From the NCBI RefSeq assembly GCF_030684315.1, contig NC_081362.1:61717744-61781743 (forward strand): 64,000 nucleotides of DNA, in the 5' to 3' direction. Source of the DNA: Stegostoma tigrinum (Eukaryota). Shown here one piece after another: positions 8,558-61,770 of this stretch (within the stretch, counting starts at the first letter, position 1; every line of letters starts with the position of its first letter). A model generated the notes under the pieces. That model was given only the letters and a program-made list of their open reading frames with translations. It searched no databases and was not told the DNA's origin. Both the position numbers and the translations under genes were made by a program.

Positions 8558-8874
8558 TCCTCCCACCCCAAGCCGCACCCCCAGCTACCTACTAACCTCA
8601 TCCCACCTCCTTGACCTGTCCGTCTTCCCTGGACTGACCTATCCCCTCCCTACCTACACTCTCTCCACCTATCTTCTTTACTCTCCATCTTCGGTCCGCC
8701 TCCCCCTCTCTTCCTATTTATTCCAGTTCCCTCCCCCCATCCCCCTCTCTGATGAATGGTCTAGGCCTGAAACGTCAGCTTTTGTGCTCCTGAGATGCTG
8801 CTTGGCCTGCTGTGTTCATCCAGCCTCACATCTTATTATCTTGGAATCTCCAGCATCTGCAGTTCCCATTATCT
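8558..8874 (+). mobile_element. Penelope-like element 3' end with degenerate hammerhead motif
   Basis: Same sequence as the end of the GIY-YIG element at 37204-38060. 11-bp TSD cttttcaattt at 8547-8557 and 8875-8885; CTGATGA...GAAACGTC from 8749. Confidence 0.85.
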
Positions 8875-9608
8875 CTTTTCAATTTGGTTTCTGTTTCACG
8901 TTTGTAGCAATTTGGCCTGATGGATCAAACCACACAATGTCTTCCATCTTAATTGCCAATTACCCCATGGACTTTCCACTGTAATGTCTCTTCGTGATTC
9001 AACTCCTCTATGCCCATTGGCCAGCACGTCTCCAATACAATGTCCCATGATTCTATTTGTGTTACCTTACTGCTAATCATCTGCTTCAGTGTAGAATTAA
9101 CTACTATTTTAATACAACTTTTATGTTCTTGGAATGCAGATCATAAATCACAAATTCAAACTCCACACTGGTGATTTGAGAATTCTATTTCAGCTTAAAA
9201 AGTTTGGAGATAGTAAGCTTTGATCAATGAAAGGAAAGAAAAAGTGACCATAAAGCTTTTGGATTGTCAACCAGCTCATTAAAGTCCTGAATAACAATAC
9301 TAGCAAGTCAGTAATTTTGGATTCCAAAAATGATAATGTTCATGACCGCAATGATTAGTTCCTCAATGCTGCAAGTATCAGCATTTAAAACAATTTACAT
9401 CTGTGGAACACATTTTGCACTGAACATCTCAAGATTCATTGCAAAAGCAGGAAGTCATAAAGAAATTTTGAACTGTGACCCAAGCATAGACATGGATACA
9501 GATTTTGAGCATTCTTTTGAAGGAGCTTTGACAAGTATAAAGGCAAAGATAACAAGAATAAACTCAGCATGGCAATTCAAGGCCACCATTTGTGATTTCT
9601 GAGAGGGA

Positions 9609-9645
9609 TGTGGCTGTGGCTGTGGCTGCGGCCGTGGCCGTGGCC
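9609..9645. repeat. (TGTGGC)n-like hexamer repeat
   Basis: About 6 imperfect units. Confidence 0.8.
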
Positions 9646-9926
9646 AGCAATATCAGTTTTATTACCCATTCCCAATGGCCCTCATGATGACAGCAGGACG
9701 TTGCATTTTTGAAAACAGAAGGTTCTTAGGCTATTTCACAGGGTAGAGGAGTTAAGCATACCCGAGAGTCTGAGGTTACCAATATTTCAAATGTTGAAAT
9801 ATTCTAAGTAGTAATCCATAACTTCTAAAAGAATTAAATATTGACTATCATTCTGAAGTGATGACTGCGTCCTGTTTAAAGAGCCAGGCAGCCTCAGTTA
9901 AAATGGCAGCAACAGAGGATACTTAC

Positions 9927-10011
9927 TCAGAAATTTGCAACGCATTCTCTTTACCCTCTTCAATCAACACATTGACAGAATTTTTCACATGTTCCACAGT
10001 TAGTAATACAC
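9927..10011 (-). CDS. EPRS1: EPRS1 coding exon 2
   Basis: 85 nt, cttgtag|...|gtaagt. Encodes (G)VLLTVEHVKNSVNVLIEEGKENALQISE; phases 1/2. Confidence 0.96.
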
Positions 10012-10472: not shown

Positions 10473-11879
10473 GCTTTAATTATGAAAGTTTGTGTGCACA
10501 TTCTGGTGTCCCTTTACTGGGATGCATGTACTTTTTAAAGAACAATTAATATTTTTATTTTATTGGTGTTTCAAGATAACAAATAATGAGACATAAAAAC
10601 AGGAATTGCTGGAAAAACCCAGCAGGTCTGGCAGCACCTTTGGACAGAAAGCAGAATTAACATTTTGGGTCCAGTGACCCCTTCTTCAGAATTTTTTTGT
10701 TCAGATTTCCAACATCTATAGATTTTTTTCAAAATGAATAATGAAAGATTTTACTGATTAGGTGCAGGAACAGGACATTTTGAAGGAGGATTGATCAAAC
10801 AAAGTGGCAAGATCACAAACTTCTGTTATTTTGCACATTTTTAATAGGCTTGGAACATTCAACTGGACATCTCAAATCAAGGAAAGAAAAGGAGGACCTC
10901 AAAGCCAGTGATGGGTAAATTAAGAGATCAAGATGAATACCAAACATTATTTGAAGTCGAAGTAAAGCAAGTAAAAATGAAGATGCCATTATTACACTCG
11001 CATCAAGTCTAGCTGCACCGACTACTGAAATTGCTGCTTTTAAGAACAGAAACACAATGAAATATCATTTCAAGTAATTATATATATATATATATATATA
11101 TAAATAAACCACTGATCTATCCAACCAATTCTGTGGTAACACACAGCATTACAAGTGTGTCAGAAATCCAAGGCCACCTCAAAATCTTTCACTGGACTGG
11201 TCAAGAATGAGAACTAAAAGTGATCCTTCAGTATCAATACTTCACAATGTCAGCACGCATCTGATCTGCACTGCAGCAATTCCACTGGTCAGAGCAGCTC
11301 AAACTGGCTGCTCCCACAATCAATGTTGATGCCCTCTTGCTACTTGAGGAAAAATCTATATCAGATGCAAAGTAACAGGTTAGAAGACTTTGAATTGGAT
11401 TAGGCATTTTAAATTTTCCTTTAACAACACAGCTGTAGTACTCAAAAGCCATAGTAAAATATTATTATATTATTTATTGTGGGAGGGACAAGAGTGATCT
11501 GTTTATCCATTACAGAAGGGGAAGCTGATGGCAATTTTGCTGTTTACAATGTAGGAACGGTGATAATGGCCTCAGTGGATGGTTGTTTTCCAAACTACAG
11601 AATCAGATAAATAATCTCAAATAAAAAATCCAATCTATCATAACATCAAAGTTTTCAGTCATTCTTACTTTAGGATTATGCTGGGAGGGAGGCTGGGAGT
11701 AGGTATTTTGTTGAACTCACTGTATTCATGTAATACACTACGTGTAGCAGACTGTCGGCACTCCCAACCAGCATCACAGTATATTCTGAATGCATCATGC
11801 GCAGAATTGTTCTTTGAAAAGTACATGCGTCCCAGTAAAGGAACACCAGAATGTGCACACAAACTTTCATAACTAAAGC
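10473..11879. repeat. 75-bp inverted repeat pair (10473-10547 / 11805-11879)
   Basis: Arms are reverse-complementary with 4 mismatches; spacer about 1.26 kb. Confidence 0.9.
11079..11102. repeat. (TA)12 microsatellite
   Basis: Direct reading. Confidence 0.95.
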
Positions 11880-13393: not shown

Positions 13394-14028
13394 TGAGACC
13401 ATAAGACATAGGAGTGGAAGTAAGGCCATTCGGCCCATCAAGTCCACTCTGCCATTTAAATCATGGCTGATGGGCATTTCAACACCACTTCCCTGCACTT
13501 CCCCCCCCCCCCCCCCAGCCCTTGATTCCTTCTGAGATCAAGAATTTGTCAATCTCTGCCTCGAAGGCATCCAACGTCCCGGCCTCCACTGCACTCCGTG
13601 GCAATGAATTCCACAAGCCCACCACTCTCTGGCTGAAGAAATGTCGTCTCATTTCAGTTTTAAATTTACCCCCTCTAATTTTAAGGCTGTGCCCACAGGT
13701 CCTTGTCTCCCTGCCTAACAGAAACAACTTCCTAGTGTCCACCCCTTCTAAACCATACATTATCTTGTAAGTTTCTAGTAGATCTCCCCTCAACCTTCTA
13801 AACTCTAATGAGTACAAACCCAGGATCCTTAGCCATTCATCATACGTTAAACCTACCATTCCAGGGATCATCCGTGTGAATCTCCGCTGGACACGCTCCA
13901 GGGCTAGTATGTCCTTCCTGAGGTGTGGGGCCCAAAATTGGACACAGTATTCTAAATGGGGCCTAACTAGAGCCTTATAAAGCCTCAGAAGCACATCGCT
14001 GCTCTTATATTCCAACCCTCTTGAGATA
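13394..14028 (-). mobile_element. Young 5'-truncated CR1-type LINE
   Basis: Open frame 13479-14015 (LYKALVRPHLEYCVQFWAP...LERVQRRFTRMIPG...LEFRRLRGDL) typical of the CR1 ORF2 C-terminus, followed by 3' UTR. Confidence 0.92.
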
Positions 14029-14285
14029 AAAGCCAGTTAAAACATTCAGAGAAAGGAAGATTGAGAAGAAACCTTTTGATTAGCAGATCTTATGAAGGAA
14101 GACAACAAAACTGTTTTCTCTCCATTCATGTGTTTTGCTTTCCCCTCATTTACATTGGTGCGTGTACAGACAAGGATGGACTTGGGAGTTTTACTCCTGT
14201 CCTTTACTGTGGTAGGCTGAAAGATGTTTTGGATTGCAATTTTTGAAACAACACCACTCTTATTTGTCCATATGATTAAAGTTAA

Positions 14286-16206: not shown

Positions 16207-16522
16207 ACAGAATCCCTACAGTATGGTAGCAGGCCACTTGCTCATTGAGTTCATACCATGCCTCCAAAGAGCAGCCCACTACTTTATCCTTGTAACCCTG
16301 CATTTACCATTGCTAATCCACTGAGCCTGCATATCCCTGGACAACATGGGCAATTTAACATGGCCAATCAACCTGAATTGCACATCCAAATTCAGGGAGG
16401 AAACCCATGCAGACATAGGGATAATGTGCAAACTCCACACAGACAGTCGCCCAAGGCTGGAATCAAACCTAGGTCCCTGGTGCTTTGAGACAGCAGTGCT
16501 AACAACCGAGCCCCTGTACCAC
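16207..16522 (-). mobile_element. HE1-type V-SINE
   Basis: Reverse-complement match to the copy at 4380. Confidence 0.8.
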
Positions 16523-16917: not shown

Positions 16918-17020
16918 TTGAGGAAGGGTCACCGGACCCGAAACGTTAACTCTGCTTTCTCCTTCACAGATGCTGCCAGACCTGCTGAGCTTTTCCAGCA
17001 ACTTTGTTTTTGTTCCTATG
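16918..17020 (+). mobile_element. Short PLE-type terminal fragment with broken hammerhead
   Basis: TGAGGA-A-GGGTC-ACCG-GACCC-GAAACGTT; 9-bp TSD tatagccag at 16909-16917 and 17021-17029. Confidence 0.7.
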
Positions 17021-18433
17021 TATAGCCAGCCTGGTAGGGAACAGGATCTCCTCGAGGGGCTTCCACTTGCCCACACTCCTCCAGACCAGATGCCCAAAGA
17101 TCAGGAGCATGGGGCTGAAGTGTAATGGAATAGTCAAACCCAACAACTCAAGCATGGCACCATCCAAAATGAAAGTAGCTCAGTTGATTGGCACCTCATC
17201 TAACTTAACGTTGACTACCTTCATTATACCATTGCGGCAGCACTATGTACCAAGTGTACCGCAGCAACGCACCAAGCCTCCTTTGATAATGACTTGCAAA
17301 CCACACTCTCACTTAGAAAACACCAGGGCAGCAGACAAAAAAAGTCACTACGGAAGAAGGGTCCAGACTCGAAACGTCAGCTTTCCTGCTCGGCCTGCTG
17401 TGTTCATCGAGCTCTACACCTTGGTATTGCAGATGCTCCAGCATCTGCAGGTCCTACTACCTCCCTCTGACCGCCTACATGCCACACACGCACACACAAT
17501 CCAGAACTTGGATATAAATCACAGGTTCTTCACTATCACTGGGTTAAAATTCTGGATTGTCCAATTTAATAACAGCTTCATTGTACTCATTACCATGAAG
17601 CAAGGTGACAGCTCATCAGCACTTTCTAAAGGGCAATTAGGAAGCTAGCCTTGCCAGGAACTACCACATCCCATGTTTGAATAATAAAAAAAATCCCTGC
17701 CAACACCACTCTATAACAGATTTTAAAAAGGCAACAAGCCTTTTTAAAAAAAATCAAAACCACACCCAGTGTACAATTTTAAAAGTCTGCATAGCTCAAA
17801 ACGTGGCCGCGATATCCCCAGAACATAAATCACACCATGTCATTTATTCGCCGCACCTTTAAAAAAATACACATGCAAACTCAGAGGTTCAAACTTAAAA
17901 TAATTTTATTAAAAAGCGGGAAAAAAGGTTAAACTTACATATTTCAGTGTAATTGAATATTTTTATTCAGAACAAAGATTTTTTAAAAACATGACAAGTT
18001 ATTCGAGCAAAAAAATTCCAGAGCAGAATATGATCGAAAGTGCCACGTTAATTAAATTGGCAAGTGACTCTATTAACAACACCGGCTTTAAATATATAGT
18101 TCTTCAATAAAAATGTAATACAATATTTGACATGGTCAGAGCAGTAAAACCAGAACAAGTGCAAAATGTTGTAAATGGCGGGGGTAAAACGAAAATGCCG
18201 GGTAACAGTCTAAAAGCGAAACCTAGCTTCGTTTTACAGATACATATTTTTCTGCCTTTTAAAAAAATGTTAATACATAAATCACAGATTGTCAATAACT
18301 GACAGTGCTGACTATAAAAGTACATACGATTCTACATATTGAAGAGCAAATTCCTCCCTACCCCCCAAACACCCACTCCATCCTCCAAGGACAGGCTGTT
18401 AATCCCCGGCTCCCGGATCAGGCTGCCCCACAC

Positions 18434-19369: not shown

Positions 19370-19495
19370 CGAGAAAACAGACTTAACGTTTCGGGTCCGG
19401 CGGCCCTTCCTCAGATGCTGCCAGACCTGCTGAGCTTTTTCAGCAACTTTGTTTTTGTTCCTGATTTACAGCATCCGCAATTCTTTTGGTTTTTA
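19370..19495. mobile_element. Partly inverted PLE-type terminal fragment
   Basis: Hammerhead segment on the - strand (19385-19414) fused to the downstream segment on the + strand; same family as 16918. Confidence 0.65.
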
Positions 19496-19659: not shown

Positions 19660-19860
19660 AAAGTCAAAAATCACAACACCATCTTACAATCCAATAGGTT
19701 TATTTGAAAACACAAGCTTTGGAGTCTCGCTCCTTCTTCAGGTGTTGGAAGCCAGACTCCAAAAGCTTGTGTTTTAAAATAAACCTATCAGACGTTAATT
19801 AGTGTCATGTGATTTTTGACCTTGCCCACCCCAGACCAACAGGGGCACCTCCACATTTGT
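19660..19860. mobile_element. Inverted-repeat PLE-type fragment
   Basis: Arms such as ataggtttatttgaaaacacaagctttggagtct / agactccaaaagcttgtgttttaaaataaacctat. Degenerate hammerhead CAC-CTGAAGA-A-GGAG..CTCC-AAA-GC-TT-GTG on the - strand. Related copy at 55248-55432. Confidence 0.65.
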
Positions 19861-20184: not shown

Positions 20185-20490
20185 ATAGAATCCCTGAAGT
20201 ATGGAAGCAGGCCATTCAACCCATTGAGTCCACAGCGACCCTACAAAGAGGATCCCACCTAAACCCACCCTATCTCCATAATCCCACATTTACCATGGCC
20301 AATGCACTTATCCTGCACATCCCTGAACACTATGGACAATTTAGCATGGCAATCAACCATGGATGAAACCCACACAAACATGGGGAGAATGTCTGTGTGG
20401 AGTTTGCAGAGTCAACTGAAGGTGAAATCAAATCTAGGTTCCTTGTGTTGAGAGACAGCAGTGCTAACCACTGTGCCACCATGGCACCCT
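20185..20490 (-). mobile_element. HE1-type V-SINE
   Basis: Reverse-complement match with internal deletion/rearrangement. Confidence 0.75.
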
Positions 20491-22957: not shown

Positions 22958-23416
22958 ACCTGCAAAAGAAAGAGACTCTCCATATTCTGAAGAAGGGTCC
23001 TAGCCCGAAGCATCAGCTTTCCTGTTCCTCTGATGCCGCTTGGCCTGCTGTGTTCCTCCAGCTCCATACTCCCATTGATTTTATGAGGCTAAGGTGATGC
23101 CTTGGGAGATCTACAACTGGCCTCCCACTCTGTACATAGCTCCCTTCAGCTGATGCAAAACTTATACATTCCTTTCAAAATTATATCTTCTGAAGCCTCT
23201 GACAAGCTCTTTATGAACCTAACTATTTTAGTTGGCTTCAAGGGAAGGCTTTCCAAGCACCTTAGTCAACACAGCTAGCACAGCAAAACTTTCCAAAATG
23301 AGTTGATTAGTCAATGCGAGTATAGTCATCCACAACACTCAACCTGCCCATTGCTGGGTGGGCGAAAACCAAACGTCATTTCTTTGAAACAGCACACTGT
23401 AAAGTATCAACTGCTA

Positions 23417-25164: not shown

Positions 25165-26250
25165 CTGTTAAAACACAATGAAAGAATAGTTAACTAATTT
25201 TGGAGAGAACACAATAAGACAACACTTCATATTTATGTAGGATATGTATGAGGATTAGAGTTGCAGAAATTACAACATTAGAGGTGGAAGTAGGAAGTAT
25301 TTGTGATGGAAATGGAATATAGTTACAGACGAAACTGGGGCTAAACGTGGATTGAGGGTGCAAACAATCTGGTACACACAGTCTGGGAAAGTGGTCTAAG
25401 AAAGTGATGAGTCCAAAGCTGAAGATTATTCCCTGAATTCTCCCTCAAAAGAAGAATGCATAAGAATCCAAGACCAGATAGTAGAAAAGCAGTCCAACAG
25501 TGTGAAGGATTAGAGATATAGCGATGGCGTTACCCATATACAAGAGGAAGATGATTAACAACTGAGGGGGATTATGTTGCTGAAGTCAGTCATATGGAAC
25601 AGAAGCAGTTGAGGGTATACCTTCAAAAAAAATCTACAGTGTAGATAGGAGGAAGGCTATTCCCAATATTTACAAATCAACAAGACTGGAAGCAAGCATT
25701 TGCTGTTCTGTTGAGTTGAACAATACAAGAGTAGCAAATTAAGAAAATTGCTGAGGTTTATCATATCAAAGTTTGCAGAGACCTCAAAGATGGGTAATGT
25801 ACATTACATTATATGTTATATTTTGGTTCCGAACGTACATTAAAGAAATCAAAACGATAGAGGCTGGAAGGGGCTGAATTCATGTTTGATAGGTTTCCAC
25901 ACTGCCATGTAGAAATGGCTCTGAAATTCACAAATCATGACAGCGGCAAAAAGAACACGATTACTGTTCACCATTGTTGTCCCCTCTACAGCCTTTGACA
26001 GAGCACGATAGGTGATCTCATCTCAAAGCTCAGGAGTTTGGTTAGTATGGGAATTCAGTGAAGTAAGGGAAGAATTTCTAACCTTGATTTTCCTTATCAA
26101 TTTGGATTGCACCAATTCAGCTGCTAGGAGATGGCACAAAACGTTTAATTTTTAAAATATAGTAAAAATAAAGGTTGTCTTTATAGGAGATAACAAAGTG
26201 TGGAGCTGGATGAACACAACAGACCAAACAGCATCTTAGGAGCACAAAAG

Positions 26251-26280
26251 CTGACGTTTCGGGCCTAGACCCTTCATCAG
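26251..26280 (-). ncRNA. Minimal type I hammerhead ribozyme motif (intact core) in PLE fragment 26187-26283
   Basis: CUGAUGA-A-GGGU-CUAG-GCCC-GAAA-CG-UC/AG on the - strand. Confidence 0.7.
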
Positions 26281-26449
26281 AAGCACAAAAATGTTGATAT
26301 TGATACTTAAAGCAGTTACTAAAAACAAAGAGTGGATCCAGTTGTCACAGGCCATGCAAGTGCCAACAACATAGGGCTTGGAAAGAAGTTCTACTCAGAT
26401 AATATGAGGAGCAAGGCACCAATCTGAAGACGAGAACGTCAACAGTAAT

Positions 26450-31744: not shown

Positions 31745-32038
31745 CTCTGGATGTGAGTTTGCTCGCTGAACTGGAAGGTTAGTTTTCAGACGTTTTGTCA
31801 CCATTCTAGGTAACATCATCAGTGAGCCTCTGATGAAGCGCTGGTGTTATGTCCTGCTTTCTAAAAAATTCTAAACAGATAAATAGAAAGCAGGACATGA
31901 CACCACCGCTTCATCGGAGGCTCACTGATGATGTTACCTAGAATGGTGACGAAACGTCTGAAAACTAACCTTCCAGTTCAGCGAGCAAACTCACATCCAG
32001 AAACTCAACCTGAGCTACAAATCTTCTCAAAACTTGCT
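31745..32038. mobile_element. PLE-type insertion forming a 118-bp hairpin
   Basis: Arms 31746-31863 and 31884-32001 (4 mismatches); 10-bp TSD atataacttg at 31735-31744 and 32039-32048. Confidence 0.85.
31921..31961 (+). ncRNA. Minimal type I hammerhead ribozyme motif (intact core)
   Basis: uca-CUGAUGA-U-GUUACC-uagaau-GGUGAC-GAAA-CG-UC/uga; predicted cleavage after 31958. Confidence 0.7.
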
Positions 32039-32840
32039 ATATAACTTGTTTTCTGAAATTAATTTTTACTCACTTCATATTCAACACAGTAAGTGGTTAG
32101 AATCTGGGGCACTCAAACAGCTATTTTCTTCAGTGTTTTTCTTAAACCAGTACGTTATGAAAAGAAAGCTGTAGTGGCCAAAAATTGCTTCAAAAAGACC
32201 CATGTAAACTTTACCCCTTCGTAATTGAAGAAGCAAAAAGTGACAGTCGCTACTTCTGTGATACACACAAAAGCACACTTTTAGGTGTGTCAAAGATTGA
32301 ACATGATTGTTGATAATGCTTTGCCTCTTCTTAGTATTAACATCTGGAAAACAAAAAAGGCGTCTTGGGCTTCCACCAATAGAAAGAAGATGCTTTAAAT
32401 CAGACTTGGACCACTGGTTCTTCATTTCCCTCCATTCATCAGCACAGCTAGGACTAGCAGCGTAAGTCAGCTGTAAAATTAAGGCGATGCTTCAATTGTA
32501 TAGAGAAGGTGCTGGAAACACTCAACATCAGTGAGCATCCGTGCAGAGAGAATCAAAGTTCATGGTTCAACTCGAAGTTTCACAACAAACTCGTTTGGAA
32601 AGTATCTCAGTAACTTCCATAATTTATGAGCAGCTATGTTCAAGTGAAAAGATTGAGTGAATGGCAGCAGTAAAATGCGGTGGGAGACACGCTAGCAGAT
32701 ATTGATGCTGGTAACTCACTAATTATGATGGAAAAAGAAGAGCATATCAATTGCATTCCATCACATTGCTCTATTGTTGAGATTATCAGTTTGCTGGGCA
32801 AGAGCTTTGAAAAAAAATGCTAACTTTTTAAAAACCGTAC

Positions 32841-35858: not shown

Positions 35859-36754
35859 CTACGTTAGAAATACGAAAAAAATGAAAATATAAACAAATAT
35901 CCAAGCAGAGTTCAGAAGAGTCAGACTGGACTTGAAACATTAATTCTGTTTCTCTTTTCACAGATGCTGCCACATGTGCTGAGTTTCTCCAGCATTTTCT
36001 GTGTTACTTACTTGTATTACATTCCACGACAGACCAGAAAGCTGTTCACTACACGACTGACAGTCTATGCCACGTTATTGGGACAGCGTAGTATATGTAA
36101 GAGTTATTAACCTGAAGCAAAGAAACTAAACTGAACTTGTCAAATTTTCATAACACTTACCTCCCTCTCCCCCTATAATTCTTTCCCCATCACCCTGCAT
36201 TTTTCCTTTTTTGCATCCTATTTTGAAAGCTCACATGGGATCCACTTCTACCAATCTGATTCTTCTGCCAATTATTTTAAATCCATGATTTAGCTGCCTG
36301 CCAGTTGACACAGTTTCTTCTTACTTACTCTAGCAAAACTTTGATAAATCATTAGTGAGATCTCAGTCAGAACGTCTCCAGCACTGGGGTGGCAAAGGCT
36401 CAGAAGGATGTCAAAGCCTCGGAAAAGATTCATAGTAATATTACAAAAATTATGCAAAAACAGGAAGGACTATGTTTATGTTGAGACAAAATAGATAATG
36501 TGGAACAGTGGTTTAAGGGAAGATTTTTCAATACGTGTTTCAAATTATTCCAATATACAGGGGGATCTTGTGGTGCAGCAGTTATGTCCCTACATCTAGA
36601 CTAAGAAACCCAGGTTTAAGTCACACGTGCTGTAGAGCTATGTGATAGCAACTCTGAACAGGCTAATTAGAAAATAGAAAAAAAACACAGGTACACTTAT
36701 GTTTGCAGCACCAAAGGAGGTCAACTGTTATTATTTTTAAAATTTAGTTGGACG

Positions 36755-38060
36755 GTTGTAAAATCCACATCGATACCATTGGGTTGCAGGGTTCCCAAGC
36801 GGAATATGAGTTGCTGTTCCTGCAATCTACGGGTGGCATCACTGTGGCATTGCAGGAGGCCCAGGATGGACATGTCGTCTAAGGAATGGTCGAGGGCGTT
36901 CTCGACCACAGCGGGGGTGCGGGTGCGGTCCTTGAAGAACAAGGACATCTGGGATGTACGAGAGTGGAATGCCTCATCCTGGGAGCAGATGCAGCGGTGG
37001 CAAAGGTGGGAGGAGGTGTATTCCAAGTAGCTGTGGGAGTCGGTGGGCTTGAAATGGACACCAGTTTCTAGGTGGTTGCCTGAGATGGAGACAGAGAGGT
37101 CCAAGAAGGTGAGGGATGTGTTGGAGATGGTCCAGGTGAACTTAAGTTTGGGGTGGAAGGTGTTGGTGAAGTGGGTGAGCTGAAGGTTGGGGTGGAAGGT
37201 GTTCAAGAACGCCCTTGACCGTGTCTCCCGCATTTCCTGCAACTCATCCCTGACACCCCAACCCCACAATAACCACCAACAGAGAATCCCCCTAGTCTTC
37301 ACATACCACCCCACCAACCTCTGAATACAACGCATCATCCTCCAACACTTCTGCCATCTACAATCCAACCCCACCACCAAAGATAGTTTTCCATCTCCAC
37401 CCTTGTCGGCCTTCCGGAGAGACCACTCTCTCCGCAACTCTCTTGTCTGCTCCACACTCCCCTCCAACCCCACCACACCTGGCACTTTCCCCTGCCACCG
37501 CAGGAAATACTATATTTGCCCCCACACCTCCTCCCTCACCCCCATCCCAGGCCCCAAGACGACTTTCCACATCAGGCAGATGTTCACCTGCACATCCACC
37601 AATGTGGTATACTGCATCCGCTGTACCTGTTGTGACTTCCTCTACATTGGGGAAACCCTAGCGAGCCTTGGGGACCGCTTTGCGGAACACCTACGCTCCC
37701 TCCACTGCGTCCCAAAACCAGCCCAGCTAATCCCCGCCTCTCTAACCTGTTCTTCCTCTCACCTCCCCCTCCTCAAGCCGCACCTCCATTTCCTATCTAC
37801 TAACCTCATCCCACCCCCTTGACTTGTCCGTCCTCCCTGGACTGACCTATCCCCTCCCTACCTCCCAATCTATATTCTCCTCTCCACCTATCTTCTCCTC
37901 TATCCATCTTCAGCCGCCTCCCCCACTCTCCCGATTTATTTCAGAATCCTTTTCCCATCCCCCTTTTCTGATGAGGGGTCTAAGCCCAAAACGTCAGCTT
38001 TTGTGCTCCTGGGATTCTGCTTGGCCTGCTGTGTTCATCCAGCTCCACACCTTGTCATTC
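36755..38060. mobile_element. Rearranged Penelope-like retroelement (RT thumb on -, GIY-YIG endonuclease on +)
   Basis: Minus strand: FHPKLKFTWTIS...FLDLSVS...FKPTDSHSYLEYTSSH. Plus strand: IPLVFTYHP...FRRDHSLRNSLV...FTCTSTNVVYCIRCTCCDFLYIGET...RFAEH. Terminal region has a hammerhead-like motif from 37968 (G12>A). Confidence 0.9.
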
Positions 38061-38590: not shown

Positions 38591-38761
38591 AGATAATAAA
38601 ATGTGAGGCTGGATGAACACAGCAGGCCAAGCAGCATCTCAGGAGCACAAAAGAAACGTCAGCTTTTGTGCTCCTGAGATGCTGCTGGGCCTGCTGTGTT
38701 CATCCAGCCTCACATTTTATTATCTTGGATTCTCCAGCATCTGCAGTTCCCATTAGCTCTG
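38591..38761. mobile_element. PLE 3'-end insertion forming a 63-bp hairpin
   Basis: Arms 38591-38653 and 38663-38725 (1 mismatch); TSD aggtgattac(g/a)gta at 38573-38586 and 38762-38775. Confidence 0.85.
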
Positions 38762-42715: not shown

Positions 42716-43179
42716 GATGTTACTTTCTGAGAGAAATATCAAGGAAATCATTCGTAATGTACATGAATTAGATTAAAAAATAACAGAGAAAAAGAAAAGT
42801 TGTTTGAAAGACAATTGTAATATTTAATTCAGTCATGAAGAGTTTGTTCATTTTCCATGGAAAGAGAATGCTAGGGGAACGTAGCAATTGGAGCCAACCA
42901 GACAATAGTGTGTAATCTGTATTCCTGGTAATAGACATGCCTTGAAGAAACAAAAACAGAAATTGCTGGACAAGCTCAGTACATCTGGCAGCATCTGTGG
43001 AGAGAAATTTGAGTCAATATTTCAGGTTGAGTGACCCTTCCTTAGAACTGATGGTGGCTAGGAAAATGTTGGTTTAAGTGCAGAAGATAGGGTGAGGGGT
43101 AAGGAGTAAATGATCGGTGGGGATAGAGAACAATTGAGCTGACAAAGGAATTGAAAATGGCCTGGCTATTTTTTTTCCC

Positions 43180-43490
43180 CATAGAATCCCTACAGTGTGG
43201 AAACAGGCCCTCCAGCCCAAGCTGAACCGCAAAGCATCCCACTGAGACCGACCCTGCTATAACCCACTTAATCTATGCATCCCTGAACACTATTTAGTGT
43301 GGCCAATCTGTCTAACTTGCACATCTTTAGACTGTGGGAGAAAACTGGAGCACCTGGAGGAAACCCATGCAGACACAGGGAGAATGTGCAACTCCAGACA
43401 GACAGTTGCCTAAGGGTAGAATTGAACCCAGGTCCCAGATACTGTGAGGCAACAGTGCTAACTATTGAGCGACCGAGCCACCATGCTGAC
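43180..43490 (-). mobile_element. HE1-type V-SINE nested in an older PLE relic (about 42950-44020)
   Basis: Reverse-complement match to HE1 copies; flanks resemble PLE termini and decayed GIY-YIG sequence. Confidence 0.75.
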
Positions 43491-44229
43491 CTCTGCCTAG
43501 GAGGGTGAATAGCTATTATTGGGGACTGTTAATGGCTAATAATCAGTTGTGTGCAATAGTATACTATGTGATAATAAGGCCTGGTGTGCAGAGTTTAGGG
43601 TAAGGACATGGGGCAGTTCAAGCCCAAAAGTTATTGAACTTGATATTGAGTCCAGAAGGCAGCTGGGTCCCCAAGTGAAAAATTAGGTATTGTTCTTCCA
43701 GCTTGCAGTGAGCTTCACTGGAACACTGCAGCAAGCCTGAGACAGATGTTGACCGGGGAACAAGACAGAATGTAGGCGCTCTACAAAATGGTCACTCAGT
43801 CTAAGCTGCGTTTCCCTCATGTAGAGGGGACCACGTTGTGAGCAGTGAATGCAGCAGACAGGATTCAGTAGAGTGCAGGTGAAGTGTTGCTTCAGCTGGT
43901 AGGTGTGTTTAGGTCCTTGAATACTGAGGAGGGAGGAAGTAACTGGACAGGTGTTACACCTTCTACAATTTCTGTTTTCTGTTCCTGATTTACAGCATCT
44001 GCAGTTCTTTGGGTTTTTACACTTTGAATGAGCCTGAGATAAACTTAATTAAAATCACTGCACTGGTTCGAGAAAGTTTCTGACATTCTGCCTCTGTAGA
44101 CTGGACATTTTTGGTTTAAAGTTCCATGTGTTGAGACACGGTTAAAAATAAAGTCACATATTTTTCTGTTGGTTTACAGTTGAAAGCTTTTTCTTGTTAT
44201 GTCCTGAACTGATAGCTGTTGGATACTCA

Positions 44230-44376: not shown

Positions 44377-44589
44377 ATGATCGTGGTGTTCCGAGTCCGC
44401 CGTGGCTCCTCGCTGCCCGGGAAACTGCGGGATGCCGCCGCCCAGTACTGGCGGTCGGTCGCCCGCGAGAACTCGAGCACTGGCACGGGGAAGAACAAAT
44501 ACCGGGAGACGGTGCTGCTGCCCCGCACCGACTTCCCCATGAGACCGAGCGGCCAGGAGCTGTTGGAAAAAGAGCTGCAGATCCAGAGG
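44377..44589 (+). CDS. IARS2: Mitochondrial isoleucyl-tRNA synthetase, exon 1
   Basis: gccATG start, Arg-rich presequence, then KYRETVLLPRTDFPM (IleRS N-terminal motif); 213 nt, donor gtacgg. The start could extend to GTG 44326 (see findings). Confidence 0.9.
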
Positions 44590-44619
44590 GTACGGGGGGG
44601 GGTGTGCGCAGGGCAGTCA

Positions 44620-46898: not shown

Positions 46899-47045
<147 letters not shown>

Positions 47046-50049: not shown

Positions 50050-53000
50050 TACTGGACCAAATAACCATAAAAGTGTAGGGAAATTCAATAGCGGAACAAC
50101 CTTAAAAGACTTTGTATCTCTATGCACAGAGCATTCAGAATAAGTAGGTAAATGAATGTGATCTCATAGCTATTACGGAAACGTGATTACGAAGAAATTA
50201 AAACTGGGAACTTTACTTAGAAGGATATTTGACCTTTCAGAAATACATGAGTGATGGAAAAATTGGTGGGGTAGCACTATTAATGAGAGATGAAATGAGG
50301 ACAGTTGTGAGATATGATCTAGGCCTGCGTGATATAGAATCTGTTTGGGTGGAGTTTTAAAAAGCAGCAGGGATAAGAAAACATTGGTGGACACCCCCAA
50401 ACAGTAGCCAATCTGTAGGCAAGGCTATATGTCAACAAATAATAAGAGCATGTAAAAAGAATAGAACAATAATTCTTGGTGATTTTAATCTTTATGGTGT
50501 TTGGGTTCATCAAATTGGGAAGGGTTTCGCTGACAAGAAATTCACAGACAGTAGCAGGGATAGTTTCTGAGAATGATATTCTTGGAGCCAGCCAGGGATC
50601 CAGCTGACTTGGATCTGGTGATAAGGCAAGCTTAACAAATGAACTCAGAATAAAAGGTTGCTTAGGAAGTAGTGATCATAACAGAGAATTTAATACACAG
50701 TTCAAGAGTGAGAAACCTGTGTCAGAAACAACTGTGTGCAACTTAAATAAAAAGAATTATAATGAAATGAGGATAGAGTTAGCTAAAGTGAATAGGTTGG
50801 ATAGATTACAAAGGGTATCAGTAAGCAAGCAGTGGTAGGCATTTAAGAAGATAATTCGTGACTGTTGGCAAAAACAGCAATAAGGCAAAAAGATTCTGAG
50901 AGAGAGATAAATCAACCATGACAAAGAAGTTAGGGAGGATATTAAGTTGAAAGTAAAAGCATATAAGGAGGTCAAAGTCAGTGATAGCCCCAAAGCCTGG
51001 GATAAATTCAGATCCAGCAAAGGAGGTGTAAAAATTTAATAAAGATGGAGAATAAACTAGGTGGGCGAACTAGTGAGGAATATAAAAACTGACATTAAGT
51101 TTCTTTGAATATATAAAAGGAGCTGCGAGATCAAAGTGAACGAAGGCCCCTTAGAAAATAAATTTGAAGAGATGATTATGGGTATCAAAGAAATGGCAGT
51201 AGAGTTTTTAAAAAGTGCTTTGCATCAGTCTTTGAAGATAATTTGAACATATCATTAATACCAAAGGCTATAGGGGCAAAATTAAGTACCATCATCTTTA
51301 TTAAAGTATTGGACAAAATATTGAGGCCAAAGGCAGTTCAGTCTCCTGGATTTGATGGCTTGCATTCTAAGATCCTAAAATAGGTAACTGCAGAGACAGT
51401 GGATGCATTAACTGTAAGTCCTTGGCTTCTGAAGAATCAATGATTCATAGAATCCGTACAGTATGGAAACAGCCCTTTGGCCCAACAAGCTCACACCAAC
51501 GCCCAGACCCGTTCCCCATAACCCATAATCAACCTAATCTGCATATCCCTGAACACTATGGAAAATTTAGTATGGCCAGTCCACCTACCCTGTACATCTT
51601 TAGACTGTGGGAGGAAACCAGGCCACCTGGAGGAAATCCACACAGATGGGGAGAATGTGCCAGCTCCACACAGACAGTCACCTTCCGTAAGACCATAAGA
51701 AATAGGACAGGTGGATTTGAACCCCTGTCCCTGGCACTGTGAGGCAGCAGTGCTAACCATTGAGCCACGGTGCCATTCCTGAGCCACCATGCTACAAGAA
51801 GTACTACAGGATTGTAAAACTAGTAATGTGATAATCCTATTTAAAATGCAAGTGAGGCTAAATGTGGCTGATTAGCCTAAAATGTATTATTGGAAAAGTA
51901 TTGGAATCAATTTTAAGGAAGTAATAGTAGAACGTTTGGAAAGTTTTGATCCAAGCAAGCAGAGGCGGAATGGTGTCATGAAAGGGAAATTATGACTGTT
52001 AGAATGTTTCCAGGAAATATAAACTAGAGTGTGTAGAAGGAAACCAGTAGATGTGTTGTATTTGGACTTCCAGAGGCATTTGACCAGATATCATACAAAA
52101 GGTTAAATCTTAAGAGCCCCTGGTTTTGGAGGTGGTATATTGGCAAGGATAGAGAATTGGCTAATGGGCAGAAAATGATGAGTGGAGATAAGGGACAAAA
52201 ACAGAAATTGCTGAAAAAGTTCGGCAGGCCTGGCAGCATTTGTGGGAAGAAATCAGAGTTCATGTTTCAAGCTGAGTGATTTGATTTTGTTTTGATTTCT
52301 TTCCACAGGTGCTTTGAGACCTGCTGAGCCTTTTCCAGCCCTTTTCTATTTTTCTTTCTGATTCACAGCGTCTGCTGTTCTTTTGGTTTTTATTTAGTGG
52401 AGGTAAGGGGTTCTTTTTCAGGTTGGAAGGTTTTTTCAGGTTGGTGACCCACAACTAGTGGGGTTCCACAGGTATCAATGCTGGGACCACAGCTGTTCAC
52501 AATATATGCTGATGACTTGGAGGATGGAAGAGAATGTACTCTAGCTAAATTTGCAGACAGTGCCAAAACAGGTGGAAAGTCGAGTCGACAGAGGGCTAAA
52601 AACAGTTTGCACAGAGATATTGACAGGTTAAGCATGTGGGTGAAAAGTTGTCAAATAGAGTATAATGTGGGAAAATGTGAACTTGTTCCTTTTGGAAAGG
52701 AGAACGAAAGAATAGAATATGGTTTATATGGACAGAAATTGCAGCAAACCACAACACAAAGGAACTGGAGTTACCTTTAAATGAAACACAGAAATTTACC
52801 ACACAGGTACTGATGATAATCAGGAAGGCTAATGGAATGTTGGCTCTTATTTCAAGGAGGTTAGAGTGTAAGGGTAGGAAAGTCTTACTGCAACTGTGCA
52901 TGGTGTTGGTGAGATCGCTTCTGGAGTACTGTTAGCAGTTTTGGTCCCTTATTTAGGGAAAGATGTAATTTCATTGGAGGCAGTTCAGAGAAGGTTCACT

Positions 53001-54848: not shown

Positions 54849-55247
54849 GCAAGAGAAATTAAAGTAGATTTATCTTGAGTGTCTCTCTTTATTTCATTGA
54901 AAATTATAGCACGTTATAATATATTCTAAATTATATCCCATCTCCCGTTTTTACTTTAGTGTCTGTGCCCTAAGGGTTGCATTTATTATAGGGCCATGGT
55001 TTCATGTACCAAAATATTCCTCTAAGACTTTGTCCAGATGATAGTTTTACAGGTATAAGCCTTGATAGTGAGTGTGTTAAGAGACTTCTTGAGAAGTAAT
55101 CTAGACAAGCCCTGAATTGTATACAAGACTACTTTCAGCAGACCTTGCTCATTAATGATCAGAATATAGAACATGTCTGAATTTCTTTTTGCCCTTCCTA
55201 CTCATGCATGGAAAACTGAGATGAATTACATGGCACATGTTGAATCA

Positions 55248-55432
55248 TGATGCGGAGATGTCGGTATTGGACTGGGATGGACAAGGCCAAAAATCACATG
55301 ATACCAAGTTACAGTCCAACAGTTTATTTGAAAGCGCAAACGTTTTGCAGCTCAGCTCCTTCCTCAAACCTGAATATACCTGTTTTCGAATAAAGTTGTT
55401 GGACTATAACCTGATGTCATGTGATTTCTGAT
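55248..55432. mobile_element. Inverted-repeat PLE-type fragment (same family as 19660)
   Basis: Arms aaatcacatgataccaagttacagtccaaca / tgttggactataacctgatgtcatgtgattt. Confidence 0.65.
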
Positions 55433-57217: not shown

Positions 57218-57565
57218 ATAGAATCCTTACAGAGTGGAAACAGGCAAATTGGCCCAACAAGTACACACCACCCCTCCGAAGAGCATCCCACCCAGACCCA
57301 TCCCACTACCCTTTCCTTCTTACCCTGCATTTCCCATGGCTAATCCACCTAACTTACGCACCTCTGGATACAAAGGGCAATTTAGCATGGCCAATCCACC
57401 TAACCTGCACATTTTGTGGAGTGCGGGAAGAAACCCGAGTACCCGGCGGAAACCCCTGCAGACACTGGGAGAATGTGCAAACTCAACACAGATAGTTGTC
57501 TGAGGGTAGAATCAAACCTGGGTTCCTGGCACGGTGAGGCAGCAATGCCAGCCACCGTGCCACCC
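57218..57565 (-). mobile_element. HE1-type V-SINE
   Basis: Reverse-complement match to HE1 copies. Confidence 0.85.
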
Positions 57566-58481
57566 GTGTTGTTCAGCTATTCAAGGTTACCCAGTAATTA
57601 TAAAGCCAACAGGAGTAAACCAGGGAAAAATCAAATCCTGAAAAAGTAGAAAGAAGAAAAATAGTGAAAACATCAAAAACTTTTAATTCTGAGTTTAATT
57701 TACTTTTGTTTTCTCACTGCTTTGCCTTGTTCAGCCATCCATTTGTGTCCATCTTCAACAAGGCAGATGACAATGATATGTCCATGATGGATGAGTGTGT
57801 AAGTTTTATGCAGAGAGAGTGGTTTTTATTTGGTTTCTTCCTCTTCGTGCAAGGTGATCCCCAGTCTGTGCTTAGTTCTTCTTCGACATAATTGCAAATT
57901 TCTGTGGAAGGAATTGTCAATGTGCACTTGCATTCTCATCAACTATTGTATGTTACGAAGTTAAAATTTGTGGAATCATATTTGTTCTAATTTTACAAGT
58001 CAACAGAGCATCACTGACTCTATTTGATGCACTGGTGGCAATCAGGTGTTATAAATTGACCAGTCCTTGAAAATAATTGAAGGCCTATAATCAAAAGAAC
58101 ATGCTTAGTTTCAATCAACTGATTGCATATCATGGTCTCAGTTTGATTCCAGCAGCTCAGCTGAAAGGTACAAATTTAATATGTAGTCGAGAAGTTGCAC
58201 AGGTGTGTAGTTGTTTTTTAGCTGCTATGCGATTGCTGATTCTAGTTTCTCTTGAGTAATGTCACTGCTTTATGTGGACAAAACAGCAGTGAAGAGTGCG
58301 CAGTCCTTGTATTGAATTCATTGTAGTTTCACGTTGCCAAGTATTTGGTTATTATAATGATGATTATTATTAACACTGCTTTAGTTTCTTGTTTATCTTT
58401 CTTGGAAACAGTGCCACATTTTGTAAACAGGTTATAGTCTTCATACAATTTTTATGGATTATAATTTCTGAATTTCATTAG

Positions 58482-58633
58482 TCATCCAAATGTTGCATGG
58501 GGCGAACATGCTGTTGAAAGAGGAAGACATAAGACACAGTTACCCGTATGACTGGAGAACAAAAAGGCCAGTAATTATACGAGCCAGCAAACAATGGTTT
58601 GTGGATACTGCAAATATCAAGAACAGAGCCCAG
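58482..58633 (+). CDS. IARS2: IARS2 exon 11
   Basis: 152 nt, tcattag|...|gtaaat. Encodes (V)[50 protein letters not shown]. Gene continues off the window. Confidence 0.97.
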
Positions 58634-59019
58634 GTAAATTTTTTGTTTGAGATTAAGTTATTGTAATGAAAATTTAAATTGTTAGTACTTGTAATTTTGC
58701 CATATATTACTGTGTAGATAGAATTTTTGGATTGTTTTAGACATCAGCTTTTGTCGTTTTTCTTCTGTTGTGAGTTTGCCAAATCTCATCTGTTTTACCA
58801 TACTTTAGAAGTTACTGATGCTATAATTATATTTTTTTCATTTCAAATTTCTCCTCTTTGTTGAAGGTGAAGTAAGGTAAGTACTAAAATGAATGCAGAT
58901 ATATTGGAAGCAAAGCTGATTTTATGTGAGTGAGAAGGAACAACATACATCTCTGCAACCTACCTGAATCTGAACTGTATTTCTAATTTTTTTAAAAACT
59001 CAAAGATGACAATTTTATG

Positions 59020-61770
59020 TCTATGCCATCATCTGTGTCTCAGCGGTGGTGGGCAATTAAACAACTGACTGGAAGAGGAGACTCCACAAATATCTCCATC
59101 CTCAGTGATGCATGCGTCCAGCACATCAGTACAAAAGATTTGGTTGAAGCTTTTTAGCAAGCTTCAACCAGAAGTGCTGAGTGGGTGGTCTATTTGGCCT
59201 CCTTCAGTGCTCCCAAGCATTTACAGATACCAGTCTTCAGCCAGTTCAATTCACTTGATGTGATGTCAAAAAATAGTTGGGGACAGTGGACACTGCAAAG
59301 GCTAAGGCCCCTGAGAACATCTGGCAATAGTACCAAGTTGCACTTGCTCAACAATAACCTGCTCAGTGATGTCTAGTTTGGATTCCACCAGGATCACTCA
59401 GCTCCTAAGATAATAGGAACTGCAGATGCTGGAGAATCCGGGATAACAAGGTGTGGAGCTGGATGAACACAGTAGGCCAAGCAGGAAAGCTGACATTTCG
59501 GGCCTAGACCCTACATCAGAAATGGGGGAGGGGAAGAGGGTTCTGAAATAAATAGGGAGAGAGGAGGAGGTGGATCAAAGATGGATAGAGGACAACTTAG
59601 GTGGAGAGGAGATAAACAAGTAAAAGAGGCGGGGATGGAGCCAGTAAAGGTGAGTGAAGGTAGGGAGGAGATAGGTCAGTCCAGGGAGGACGGACAGGTT
59701 AAGTGGGCGGGATGAGGTTAGTAGATAGGAAATGGGGGTGCGGCTTGAGGTGGGAGCAGGGGATAGGTGAGAGGAAGAACAGGTTAGGGAGGTGGGGATG
59801 AGCTGGGCTGGTTTTGGGATGCGGTGGTGGGAAGGGAGATTTTGAACCTTGTGAAATCCACATTGATATCGTTGGGCTGCAGGGTTCCCAAGCAGAATGA
59901 GTTGCTGTTCCTGCAACCTTTGGGTGGCATCATTGTGGCGCTGCAGGAGGCCCATAATGGGCATGTCGTCTTAGGAATCGAAGGGGGAGTTGAAATGGTT
60001 CGAGAACTAGAAGGTGCAGTTGTTTATTGCTAGCCGAGCATAGGTGTTCTGCAAAGCAGTTCCCAAGTCTCCGTTTGGTTTCCCTGATGTAGAGGAGACC
60101 ACAACGAGTACAATAGATGCAGTATACCACATTAGCAGGTTGCAGGAACAGCAACTCATATTCCGCTTGGGAACCCTGCAGCCCAATGGTATCAATGTAG
60201 ATTTCACAAGCTTCAAAATCTCCACTCCCCCCATCGCATCCCAAAACCAGCCCAGCTTGTCCCCACCTCCCTAACCTGTTCTTCCACTCGCCTATCCCCT
60301 CCTCCCACCTCAAGCCGCACCCCCATTTCCTATCTACTAATCTCGTCCCGCCCCCTTGACCTGTCCATCTCCCCTGGACTGACCTACCTCCTCCCTACCA
60401 CCCCACCTACACTCACAGTTACTGGCTTCTCTCCACCTATCTTCTCCTCTATCCATCTTCGATCCGCCTACCCCTCTCTCCCTATTTATTTCAGAACCCT
60501 CTTCCCCTCCCCCATTTCTGATGAAGAATCTAGGTCCGAAATGTCAGCTTGCCTGCTCTCATCCAGCTCCACACCTGTTCACTCAGCTCCTGACCTCATT
60601 ACAGCCTTGGTTCAAGCATGGACAAAAGAGCTGAATTCCAGAGGCGAGGTGAGAGCGACAACCTTTGATATCAAAGGTACGTTCGACCAAGTGTGGCATT
60701 GAGGAGCCCTAGCCATACTGGAATCAATCGGTATCCGTTGGCAAACTTTTTGCTGATTGGAATCATTCCTGGCACAGAAGATGATGTTCTTGGCTGTTGG
60801 AGGTCAGTCCTCTCAGTTTCAGGATGTCCCTGCTGGAGTTCCTCAGAGTGATGTCTTAGCCTCAACCATCTGCAGCTCCTTCATTGATGACCATTCCCCC
60901 CATCATAAGGTCAGAAGTGGAGATGTTCACTGTGCAATGTTCAGCATCTTTCATGACTCTTCAGGTACTGAAGCAGTCCATTGTCAAATGCAACCAAATC
61001 TAGACAATATTCAGGCTTGGGCTAACAACTGCTAAGTAGCATTCTTGCCACACAAATGCCAGACGATGACCATCACCAATAAGAGACAATATGACCACCA
61101 TCCCTTGACATTCAATTGGTGTCACCATCACAGAAATCCCCACTATCAACAATTTGGAGATTACCGTTGACCAGAAACTCAAGTGGACTCTCCACGTAAA
61201 TACAGTGGCTTCAAGAGCAGATCAGAGGCTAAGAATACTCTGGCGAGTAACTCACCTCCTGACTCCACAAAGTCTGTTTCACCATCTATAAGGCAGAACT
61301 CAGGAGTGTAATGGAATACTCCCCGCTTGTCTGGATGGCTGCAATTCCAAAAACGTTCAAGAAGCTTGACACCATCAGAACAAAGCAGCCTGCACAATTG
61401 GCACCACATTCACAAACATCCTCTCATTCCGTGCAGAAATTCACCAAAGATCCTCCAGACAGCATTTTCCAAACCTGTGACCACTTCCATCTGTAAGGAC
61501 AAGTAGATACGTGGGAACACCATCACCTCCAGGTTCCATTCCAAGCCACTCACTGCTCTGATTTGGAAATACATCACCATTCCTTCAGTGTTGCTGGGTC
61601 AAAATTCTGGAATTCTACCCCCTAATGACATTATGGGTCTGCTCACAGAAGGTGGACTGCAGCAGTTCAAGAAGGCAACTCATTCCAACTTTCTCAAGGG
61701 CAACTAGGAACGGGTAATAATAAATGCTGGTCAGCCAGTGACGATCTCATCCTACAAACGAATACAAAAA
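59020..61770 (+). mobile_element. Degraded non-LTR retrotransposon (CR1/L2 group) interrupted by a PLE
   Basis: RT motifs FGFHQDHS, DIKGTFDQVWH, AGVPQSDVL and MEYSPLVW; 3' tail shared with the second SINE family. Confidence 0.8.
59407..60578. mobile_element. PLE insertion with long inverted arms
   Basis: Minus-strand GIY-YIG segment (NVVYCIYCTRCGLLYIRETKRRLGNCFAEH) followed by an inverted copy of the 3' end; 13-bp TSD tcactcagctcct at 59394-59406 and 60579-60591. Confidence 0.9.

What the first reader, a model, noticed from the sequence alone, without database searches (positions are those of the whole stretch)
8749..60550. At least four Penelope-like families each carry a minimal hammerhead ribozyme, with covarying stem II
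Seen: the pattern CUGANGA - one extra nt - stem II - GAAA - CG/GC - UH recurs in otherwise different repeat ends. Family A has GGGU/GCCC (8749+, about 22985+, 26251-, 37968+, about 59491-, 60518+). Family B has GGGUC/GACCC (16918+, 19385-, relics near 10660- and 43020-). Family C has GUUACC/GGUGAC (31925+, 31789-). Family D has GGAG/CUCC (about 19712-). Core residues are shared while stems differ yet still pair. Established: minimal type I hammerheads with a tiny palindromic stem III are known in PLE termini and are thought to cleave as dimers; an extra nt between A9 and G10.1 occurs in natural hammerheads. The class is therefore known, but the density (more than 10 in 64 kb) and family diversity here are striking and are normally hidden by repeat masking.
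Basis: partly seen in the sequence, partly recalled or inferred. Interest (0 to 1): 0.7.

Follow-up and report, generated by a model that had tools for sequence, protein, structure and literature searches.

The report
Penelope retrotransposon ends carrying minimal hammerheads
These are mostly decayed end-pieces of Penelope-like jumping genes that carry a known miniature self-cutting RNA motif, no denser here than elsewhere in this genome, and the places where the copies begin likely record where the element's RNA starts and, less often, where it cuts itself.

Summary
All 13 listed motifs exist, but only 3 keep an intact core plus stem II and 1 passes the published minimal-hammerhead descriptor. 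They end Penelope-like elements of three lineages: A and B are sisters (Neptune-type linker), D is a distant Neptune-type, C resembles Poseidon. The class, extra nucleotide and several families per genome were published in 2014 (PMC4209133). Density is ordinary for this 3.2-Gb genome: 47 intact cores per Mb against 104 per Mb in a 740-kb sample, about 330,000 genome-wide, against 4,000-9,000 published for coelacanth and frog. Covariation holds between lineages (60 of 64 cells paired); within families copies decay at CpG. Copy 5' ends pile up about 30 nt after a TATA-like box (-4 in A, -17/-16 in C), with a smaller peak at the predicted cut (A 32 of 100, C 24 of 86, B inconclusive). This fits reverse-transcriptase run-off from mostly uncut, sometimes cut RNA; no RNA data were available. 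The scan noted both patterns before, in this and other genomes. New member of a known kind.

The parts
8557..8879 (+). Family A 3' end (-208 to +130 relative to core C3); core 8749-8776, G10.1>U breaks the first stem II pair; TATA-like TATTTAT at 8715
10606..10691 (-). Family B stub starting 2 nt before the core (C3 at 10689); core damaged
16918..17026 (+). Family B stub starting at +1; U in place of C3, no native stem I 5' strand
17353..17454 (+).
19371..19487 (.). Family B inverted junction: minus arm 19371-19415 with intact core (19385-19414, one stem II mismatch, 1 bp stem I) joined to plus arm 19412-19487 lacking the core
19663..19856 (.). Family D head-to-head pair; minus core at 19741 lacks G12, plus arm starts inside stem II
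22986..23062 (+). Older family A stub starting about 6 nt before the core (22987); A14>G and G16.2>A
26188..26283 (-). Family A stub with intact core and stem II (26253-26280), 2-bp stem I; predicted cut between 26253 and 26252
31746..31863 (-). Family C minus arm of a head-to-head pair; core 31789-31822 with G12>A
31863..32040 (+). Family C plus arm; the only window motif that passes the published descriptor (core 31925-31958, stem II 6 bp, stem I 3 bp); ATAAATA at 31879; predicted cut between 31958 and 31959
35915..35992 (+).
36758..38058 (.). Rearranged family A insertion with broken RT-thumb, cysteine-linker and GIY-YIG remains; core 37968-37995 (+) with G12>A
   Evidence: (GIY-YIG E=0.007, below cut-off)
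38591..38761 (.). Family A hairpin; arms start at +30 and +20, so both lack the first half of the core
42949..43963 (-). Family B copy (core at 43045, G5>A; native upstream promoter region) with endonuclease-region remains at 43497-43963
52188..52384 (.). Family B head-to-head pair without core
55246..55431 (.).
59409..60558 (.). Family A head-to-head pair with GIY-YIG-region remains; cores at 59519- (A9>U, C15.2>U) and 60518+ (stem II broken)

Best explanation
The motifs are minimal type I hammerheads in the terminal repeat (pseudo-LTR) of three lineages of Penelope-like retrotransposons, and the window holds short, mostly mutated copies that likely arose when the element's reverse transcriptase ran off the 5' end of an RNA that would begin 4-17 nt before the hammerhead core. 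Shown: the motif, its covariation between lineages, its position 230-350 nt downstream of GIY-YIG coding remains in A and B, a TATA-like box 32-46 nt before the core, two classes of 3' ends, a main peak of 5' ends about 30 nt after the TATA-like box, a smaller peak at the predicted cut, CpG-driven decay. Inferred: Pol II starts at the main peak, so the hammerhead is the first 32-51 nt of the transcript; reverse transcription starts internally about 85-145 nt further on at two sites (as shown in vitro for the anole element, PMC11167929); uncut RNA gives stubs from the start site, often with an extra G that would come from the cap; a minority of RNA is cut and gives stubs from the cut site; read-through RNA gives longer copies; two cDNAs joined give head-to-head pairs. 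Cutting would need a partner core or the element's protein, since a lone motif is not predicted to fold. Inserted copies have no sign of function.
For: Descriptor hits far above shuffles. One copy each of 8 sub-lineages: 60 of 64 helix cells paired, shuffle mean 34.7, 0 of 10,000 reach 60; changes on both sides at II.2, II.3, II.4, I.1, I.2 and the stem III palindrome. PLE link: RVT_1 E=2e-11 and GIY-YIG E=0.002 for C; RVT_1 E=0.007 for A; B 50% and D 32% identical to A's endonuclease region. 5' ends in unselected DNA: A 28 of 180 at -6..-1 (4.7 per position) against 18 at -79..-7 (0.25); B 22 of 80 at -6..-1. C: 63 of 85 junctions at -17/-16 by hand from the first 100 of 1,078 rows, 22 of 30 by script, so the boundary follows the TATA-like box (-34 A, -46 C) and not the core. 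G before -4 in 20 of 31 unique-flank rows, p=7e-6. Cut site: A 32 of 100 over 8 positions, 38 of 100 junction rows against 15 of 100 at a control position; C 24 of 86. 3' ends are bimodal in A, B and C. CpG positions are 76-84% conserved in A against mostly 92-100% at non-CpG positions that do not mark a subfamily. Monomer stem I probability is at most 0.08 for RNA starting at the inferred start.
Against: No RNA evidence for a start, a cap or a cut. The cut-site peak is modest: absent in the unselected sample (2 of 180 A copies at +28); 7 of A's 32 rows are microhomology with an inverted arm and an AGCT palindrome begins there; in C the first 30 rows gave only 3, and the scripted recount of 74 matches gave 16 of 69 (p=0.01) beside 11 and 13 at the next two positions; B gave 21 of 100 with about 10 explained by microhomology or deletion. 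Tallies cover the first 100 listed rows, mostly by hand, and both arms of a hairpin can count twice. In head-to-head pairs the G can come from the other arm. Family A has only 2 bp of stem I and its stem II is not predicted to form in context. PMC11167929 found no RNA reads ending at the cut in anole. No full-length element with two direct pseudo-LTRs turned up in the DNA fetched. Pfam scores for A, B and D are below cut-off or absent.
Confidence: 0.72

Rival explanations
1. The hammerheads are carried along but are not cut in vivo; the small peak at the cut site comes from reverse-transcriptase pausing at the RNA structure or from microhomology joins.
For: Monomers do not fold stem I; A has 2 bp of stem I; uncut RNA is the dominant substrate and cutting is dispensable in vitro for the anole element (PMC11167929); B is inconclusive; the unselected sample shows no peak; Naiad elements spread without hammerheads (PMC8557442 passages).
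Against: The excess falls on the base predicted beforehand in two unrelated clades, C has no palindrome there, and core and pairing are kept across lineages that share 32-34% protein identity in short stretches, which implies selection on the fold in active elements.
Confidence: 0.2
2. The short copies are separate non-autonomous elements (retrozyme- or SINE-like) with their own hammerhead-based circular RNA cycle.
For: Most B copies in the unselected sample are only 100-140 nt; a 2026 preprint derives animal retrozymes from PLE pseudo-LTRs.
Against: Stubs are continuous in sequence with long copies that run into RT and GIY-YIG remains; no hammerhead-bearing tandem array among the 5 tandem rows of the window; neighbours are mostly head-to-head; the main boundary is upstream of the core, not at the cut.
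Confidence: 0.05
3. The genomic copies act today as host regulatory ribozymes and are kept by selection, which would explain a local cluster.
For: Some tens of thousands of copies still match the full descriptor (13 in 740 kb).
Against: No local cluster; 10 of 13 window copies are damaged; core CpG positions decay like any CpG.
Confidence: 0.03

Closest known systems
Minimal hammerheads (min-HHR) of metazoan Penelope-like elements, Cervera and De la Pena 2014, PMC4209133 (read: parts 1-2 of 4 of the text, parts 2-3 of supplementary file 2; file 1 could not be searched)
   Same: CUGANGAH core, extra nucleotide, G10.1-C11.1, palindromic 15.2-16.2, NUH, location in pseudo-LTRs, several families per genome, mostly single truncated copies, opposite-strand pairs 100-700 bp apart.
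   Different: Estimated 263,000-416,000 intact cores here (30,000-96,000 with the full descriptor) against about 4,000 and 9,000 in coelacanth and frog; the dominant family A has 2 bp of stem I and is missed by the published descriptor (55 of 68 sample hits); no cartilaginous fish named in the parts searched.
Poseidon element PAc of the green anole, Frangieh et al. 2024, PMC11167929 (read: parts 1-2 of 4)
   Same: Hammerhead at the pseudo-LTR/ORF boundary; ORF starting at stem II (family C has ATG ATG in the core and a frame open for 40 codons); two 3' end classes 30-40 nt apart; uncut RNA dominant.
   Different: PAc was tested in vitro (protein-assisted cleavage, internal RT start); no reads ended at its cut site. 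Here only DNA was examined, and it shows a minority peak of copies starting at the cut.
Penelope elements of Adineta vaga, PMC3846280, and PLE architecture in PMC8557442 (both: passages only)
   Same: TATA-like box plus initiator-like TCACT in the pseudo-LTR, head-to-head palindromic junctions, optional 30-40 bp tail; Neptune clade marked by a zinc-finger-like linker between RT and EN.
   Different: The passages seen do not tie copy 5' ends to the start site or to the hammerhead; Drosophila virilis Penelope has a TATA-less internal promoter (PMC2377424, passages).
Animal non-LTR retrozymes, bioRxiv 10.64898/2026.07.22.740005 (read: parts 1-2 of 5 and passages)
   Same: Type I hammerheads related to PLE pseudo-LTRs; one chondrichthyan genome was positive.
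   Different: Retrozymes are tandem arrays with a motif in each unit; these copies are dispersed and continuous with PLE coding remains.

Membership tests
min-HHR of metazoan PLEs | Core CUGANGA ... GAAANNUH | tested here: met
   Family-level: 8 of 8 representatives, 77 hits in 740 kb. Copy-level in the window: 4 of 13 keep the core letters, 3 also stem II.
min-HHR of metazoan PLEs | Extra nucleotide between 9 and 10.1 and G10.1-C11.1 pair | tested here: met
   8 of 8 representatives.
min-HHR of metazoan PLEs | Palindromic 15.2-16.2 (no stem III loop) | tested here: met
   CG in A, B, C; GC in D; two single old copies carry CpG changes.
min-HHR of metazoan PLEs | Stem I of at least 3 bp (published descriptor), families B, C, D | tested here: met
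   B 4 bp, C 3 bp, D 3-5 bp.
min-HHR of metazoan PLEs | Stem I of at least 3 bp (published descriptor), family A | tested here: not met
   2 bp in young and old A. The same paper accepts a 2-bp helix I in Drosophila virilis, so A is a variant outside the descriptor rather than outside the class.
min-HHR of metazoan PLEs | Self-cleavage as dimer or with help | not testable with these tools
   Only indirect DNA junction counts.
EN+ Penelope-like elements | RT followed by C-terminal GIY-YIG endonuclease upstream of the repeat | tested here: met
   C: RVT_1 2e-11, GIY-YIG 0.002. A: RVT_1 0.007, GIY-YIG 0.007. B: 50% to A. D: endonuclease region only, 32% over 77 aa, no Pfam hit.
EN+ Penelope-like elements | Full ORF flanked by two direct pseudo-LTRs | tested here: inconclusive
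   No copy in the fetched DNA continued from the tail into its own ORF; no search aimed at full-length copies was run.
EN+ Penelope-like elements | 5'-truncated and inverted copies, optional 30-40 bp tail | tested here: met
   Head-to-head pairs dominate; bimodal 3' ends.
Neptune clade (A, B, D) versus Penelope/Poseidon clade (C) | Cysteine linker between RT and EN present or absent | tested here: met
   C-x4-C-x2-C linker seen in translations of A, B, D, absent in C.
Neptune clade (A, B, D) versus Penelope/Poseidon clade (C) | Placement in an RT tree with named references | not tested
   No reference PLE proteins were fetched; clade names rest on the linker and on the description in PMC8557442.
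Non-LTR retrozymes | Tandem units each with a hammerhead, no coding remains | tested here: not met
Rfam hammerhead families | Match to a curated covariance model | tested here: not met
   None of 13 matches at E up to 10 is a hammerhead; minimal motifs lack the helices those models score.

The most novel reading that the evidence does not exclude
The genome is a fossil record of the Penelope cycle: the hammerhead is the capped first 32-51 nt of the transcript, and thousands of insertions were copied from RNA that the ribozyme had cut in germ cells, including a family with only 2 bp of stem I. That would be in vivo evidence of cleavage by minimal PLE hammerheads, at about one cut template for every 5-10 uncut ones, in the largest such population yet counted (about 300,000).
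Probability: 0.55. Interest if true: 0.58.

Novelty: new member of a known kind. Interest (0 to 1): 0.33.

Why it matters
The finding as posed is an expected feature of a repeat-rich vertebrate genome. What remains of value is quantitative and mechanistic. Whether minimal PLE hammerheads cut in vivo was left open in 2014 (PMC4209133) and 2024 (PMC11167929); insertion ends give exact bases to test by cap and cyclic-phosphate sequencing. The commonest family escapes the published search descriptor, so counts in other genomes may be low. The scan has already recorded these points several times, so this window adds an independent re-test rather than a new object.

Tried and rejected
Rfam scan: no hammerhead model matched. 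Local enrichment: rejected. Selection on inserted copies: rejected by CpG-type decay. An alternative pairing of the core with the strand after GAAA in family A was considered; folds gave other competing structures instead. MAFFT alignments misplace stems of unequal length, so covariation was counted on a hand-anchored table. Search for full-length elements by downstream extension found only a chimera with another LINE. Family B cut-site test: inconclusive. Family D start site: too few junctions. In one search two of seven A references were themselves short copies, which adds noise upstream. In one search, 14 pairs labelled tail-to-tail at under 25 nt are overlapping head-to-head pairs. Rows dropped before counts: 14 of 100 long copies (and inverted or duplicated flanks for the G test, leaving 31), 14 of 100, 15 of 100, 5 of 74. 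About 5 of the 88 descriptor hits listed belong to no family and were left in the density estimate. Literature: searches listed no paper on shark PLE hammerheads or on copy ends at the cut site; the library lacks most subscription papers, and supplements of the 2026 preprint and file 1 of PMC4209133 were not seen.
Full report
Observation. The descriptor printed in the supplement of Cervera and De la Pena 2014 finds 1 motif in the window with stem I of 3 bp or more, 2 with 2 bp and 3 with no stem I demand, against a mean of at most 0.03 in 30 shuffles. The other ten sites have lost a core base or a stem II pair. Rfam has no matching hammerhead model.

Density. The window lies in a 3.2-Gb genome. 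The repeats resemble those of sharks, but that is recalled and echoed by earlier scan notes; no call named the organism. In 74 stretches of 10 kb taken at regular positions on large contigs (740 kb) the descriptor found 13, 68 and 77 motifs at the three settings, and three shuffles gave 0-2. That is 104 intact cores per Mb, about 333,000 genome-wide (Poisson range 263,000-416,000), or 56,000 (30,000-96,000) with the full descriptor. The window has 3 against 6.7 expected, and 24 remnants against 22.8 expected. It is not enriched. Exact words occur 89,060 times for A, 6,988 for C, 887 for one B variant and 189 for a D pattern. The published counts are about 4,000 for coelacanth and 9,000 for Xenopus tropicalis, with 6 and 8 families.

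Families. Long copies link each motif to Penelope-like coding remains. C: RVT_1 E=2e-11 and GIY-YIG E=0.002, no cysteine linker, and an ATG pair inside the core with a frame open for 40 codons, as described for the anole Poseidon. A: RVT_1 E=0.007, GIY-YIG E=0.007 and a cysteine linker. B is a sister of A, 50% identical over 115 aa and alike in DNA downstream of the core. D has the linker and is 32% identical to A over 77 aa, with no Pfam hit. So there are three lineages; clade names rest on the linker described in PMC8557442, not on a tree.

Structure. Across one copy each of 8 sub-lineages, 60 of 64 helix cells pair, against a mean of 34.7 in 10,000 shuffles, none reaching 60. Both sides change at II.2, II.3, II.4, I.1, I.2 and at the stem III palindrome (CG or GC); G10.1-C11.1 and the extra nucleotide are constant. 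The rows are related, so the shuffle figure is not a probability. Stem I is 2 bp in A, 4 in B, 3 in C and 3-5 in D. A lone RNA from the inferred start does not form stem I (probability at most 0.08), and in A stem II is also lost to other pairings. Within families, variation is decay: in 103 A copies the two CpG pairs that overlap the core (C11.1-G12, C15.2-G16.2) are 76-84% conserved, most other positions 92-100% apart from subfamily marks. This explains most of the damage in the window.

Where copies begin. I had seen that B copies start a few bases before the core; the start-site, cap and cut-site readings came as leads from earlier scan notes and were then tested. In unselected DNA, 28 of 180 A copies begin at -6 to -1, 18 at -79 to -7, 42 at 0 to +33 and 60 extend beyond -80; 22 of 80 B copies begin at -6 to -1. 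TATA-like boxes lie at -34 (A), -32 (B), -46 (C) and -41 (D). The telling case is C: 54 junctions at -17 and 9 at -16 among 85 (first 100 of 1,078 rows, by hand; 22 of the first 30 by script). The boundary thus follows the TATA-like box at about 30 nt, not the ribozyme. For A at -4, 20 of 31 rows with unique flank have G just before the junction (p=7e-6 against 0.26), as a copied cap would give. TATA-plus-initiator motifs in pseudo-LTRs are in print for a rotifer, whereas the fly element is TATA-less.

Cut site. With patterns that exclude long copies, 32 of the first 100 A junctions over eight positions fall on the base after GUC (others 5-15; 25 of 93 without one microhomology class, p=1e-4), and 38 of 100 rows are junctions there against 15 of 100 at +31. 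C gave 24 of 86 by hand (others 1-13), but only 3 of the first 30, and 16 of 69 when 74 matches were recounted by script (p=0.01). B gave 21 of 100, about 10 of them explained by microhomology or deletion. The unselected sample shows no peak (2 of 180). Scaled counts put the start-site peak about 5 times (A) and roughly 10 times (C) above the cut-site peak. The signal is real in A, weaker in C, unclear in B.

Mechanism. Frangieh et al. 2024 showed in vitro that a Poseidon RT starts inside the RNA at two sites that define the genomic tail, nicks and extends both DNA strands, uses mainly uncut RNA, and that its hammerhead cuts only with the protein. The 3' ends here are bimodal in the same way: A 35 of 97 at +90-110 and 43 at +130-150; B 13 and 22 of 49; C 16 of 58 at +80-90 and 25 at +110-130. 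Copying from these sites to the RNA's 5' end would give the 100-145 bp stubs; a cut template would give stubs from the cut; read-through RNA longer copies; two cDNAs the head-to-head pairs (38 of 56 neighbouring A pairs once overlapping pairs are reclassed). These steps are inferred. No RNA holder was listed.

Comparison and verdict. B, C and D meet the sequence definition of the 2014 minimal hammerhead; A meets it except for stem I. They are not retrozymes. The searches listed no paper on these families or on insertion ends at the cut site, but earlier scan notes report both for this genome and others. New member of a known kind; interest 0.33, with a testable side result on in vivo cleavage.

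Noticed in passing
L097:4745-10000 (+) and L222 (minus strand, core at oriented 1972): Two loci on different contigs where a family C end with the same core change (G12>A) runs directly into an L1/Tx1-type LINE (ZCCHC3-like ORF1, APE endonuclease, RT), 93% identical over 1,452 nt with different flanks. Fits a LINE that targets the Penelope hammerhead and carries a dead copy at its front, as note e1-8593294 says.
   Followed up: partly
window 44616-45458: Array of a 49-nt unit, 15.7 copies, G-rich, after a GC-rich stretch at about 44170-44610 with long open frames.
   Followed up: no
window 16281-16521, 20267-20486, 43355-43480, 51493-51775, 57308-57570: Another dispersed repeat family of about 250 nt, SINE-like (families D4, D7, D8); likeness to shark tRNA-derived SINEs is recalled, not tested.
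   Followed up: no
window 13479-14036 (-): 185-aa open frame that reads like the C-terminal part of a CR1/L2-type LINE protein (recalled motif; no clear Pfam hit).
   Followed up: no
L146, L129, L142, L113, L121, L153: Further hammerhead-bearing sub-lineages not in the window (C2, C3 and a GAGUC/GAUUC stem type), with their own stem I and II pairs.
   Followed up: partly
L301 and rows: Family C hairpins whose turn lies exactly at the predicted cut (5 rows of 100, two of them one locus).
   Followed up: partly
window 1216-1292: Perfect two-copy repeat of 39 nt.
   Followed up: no
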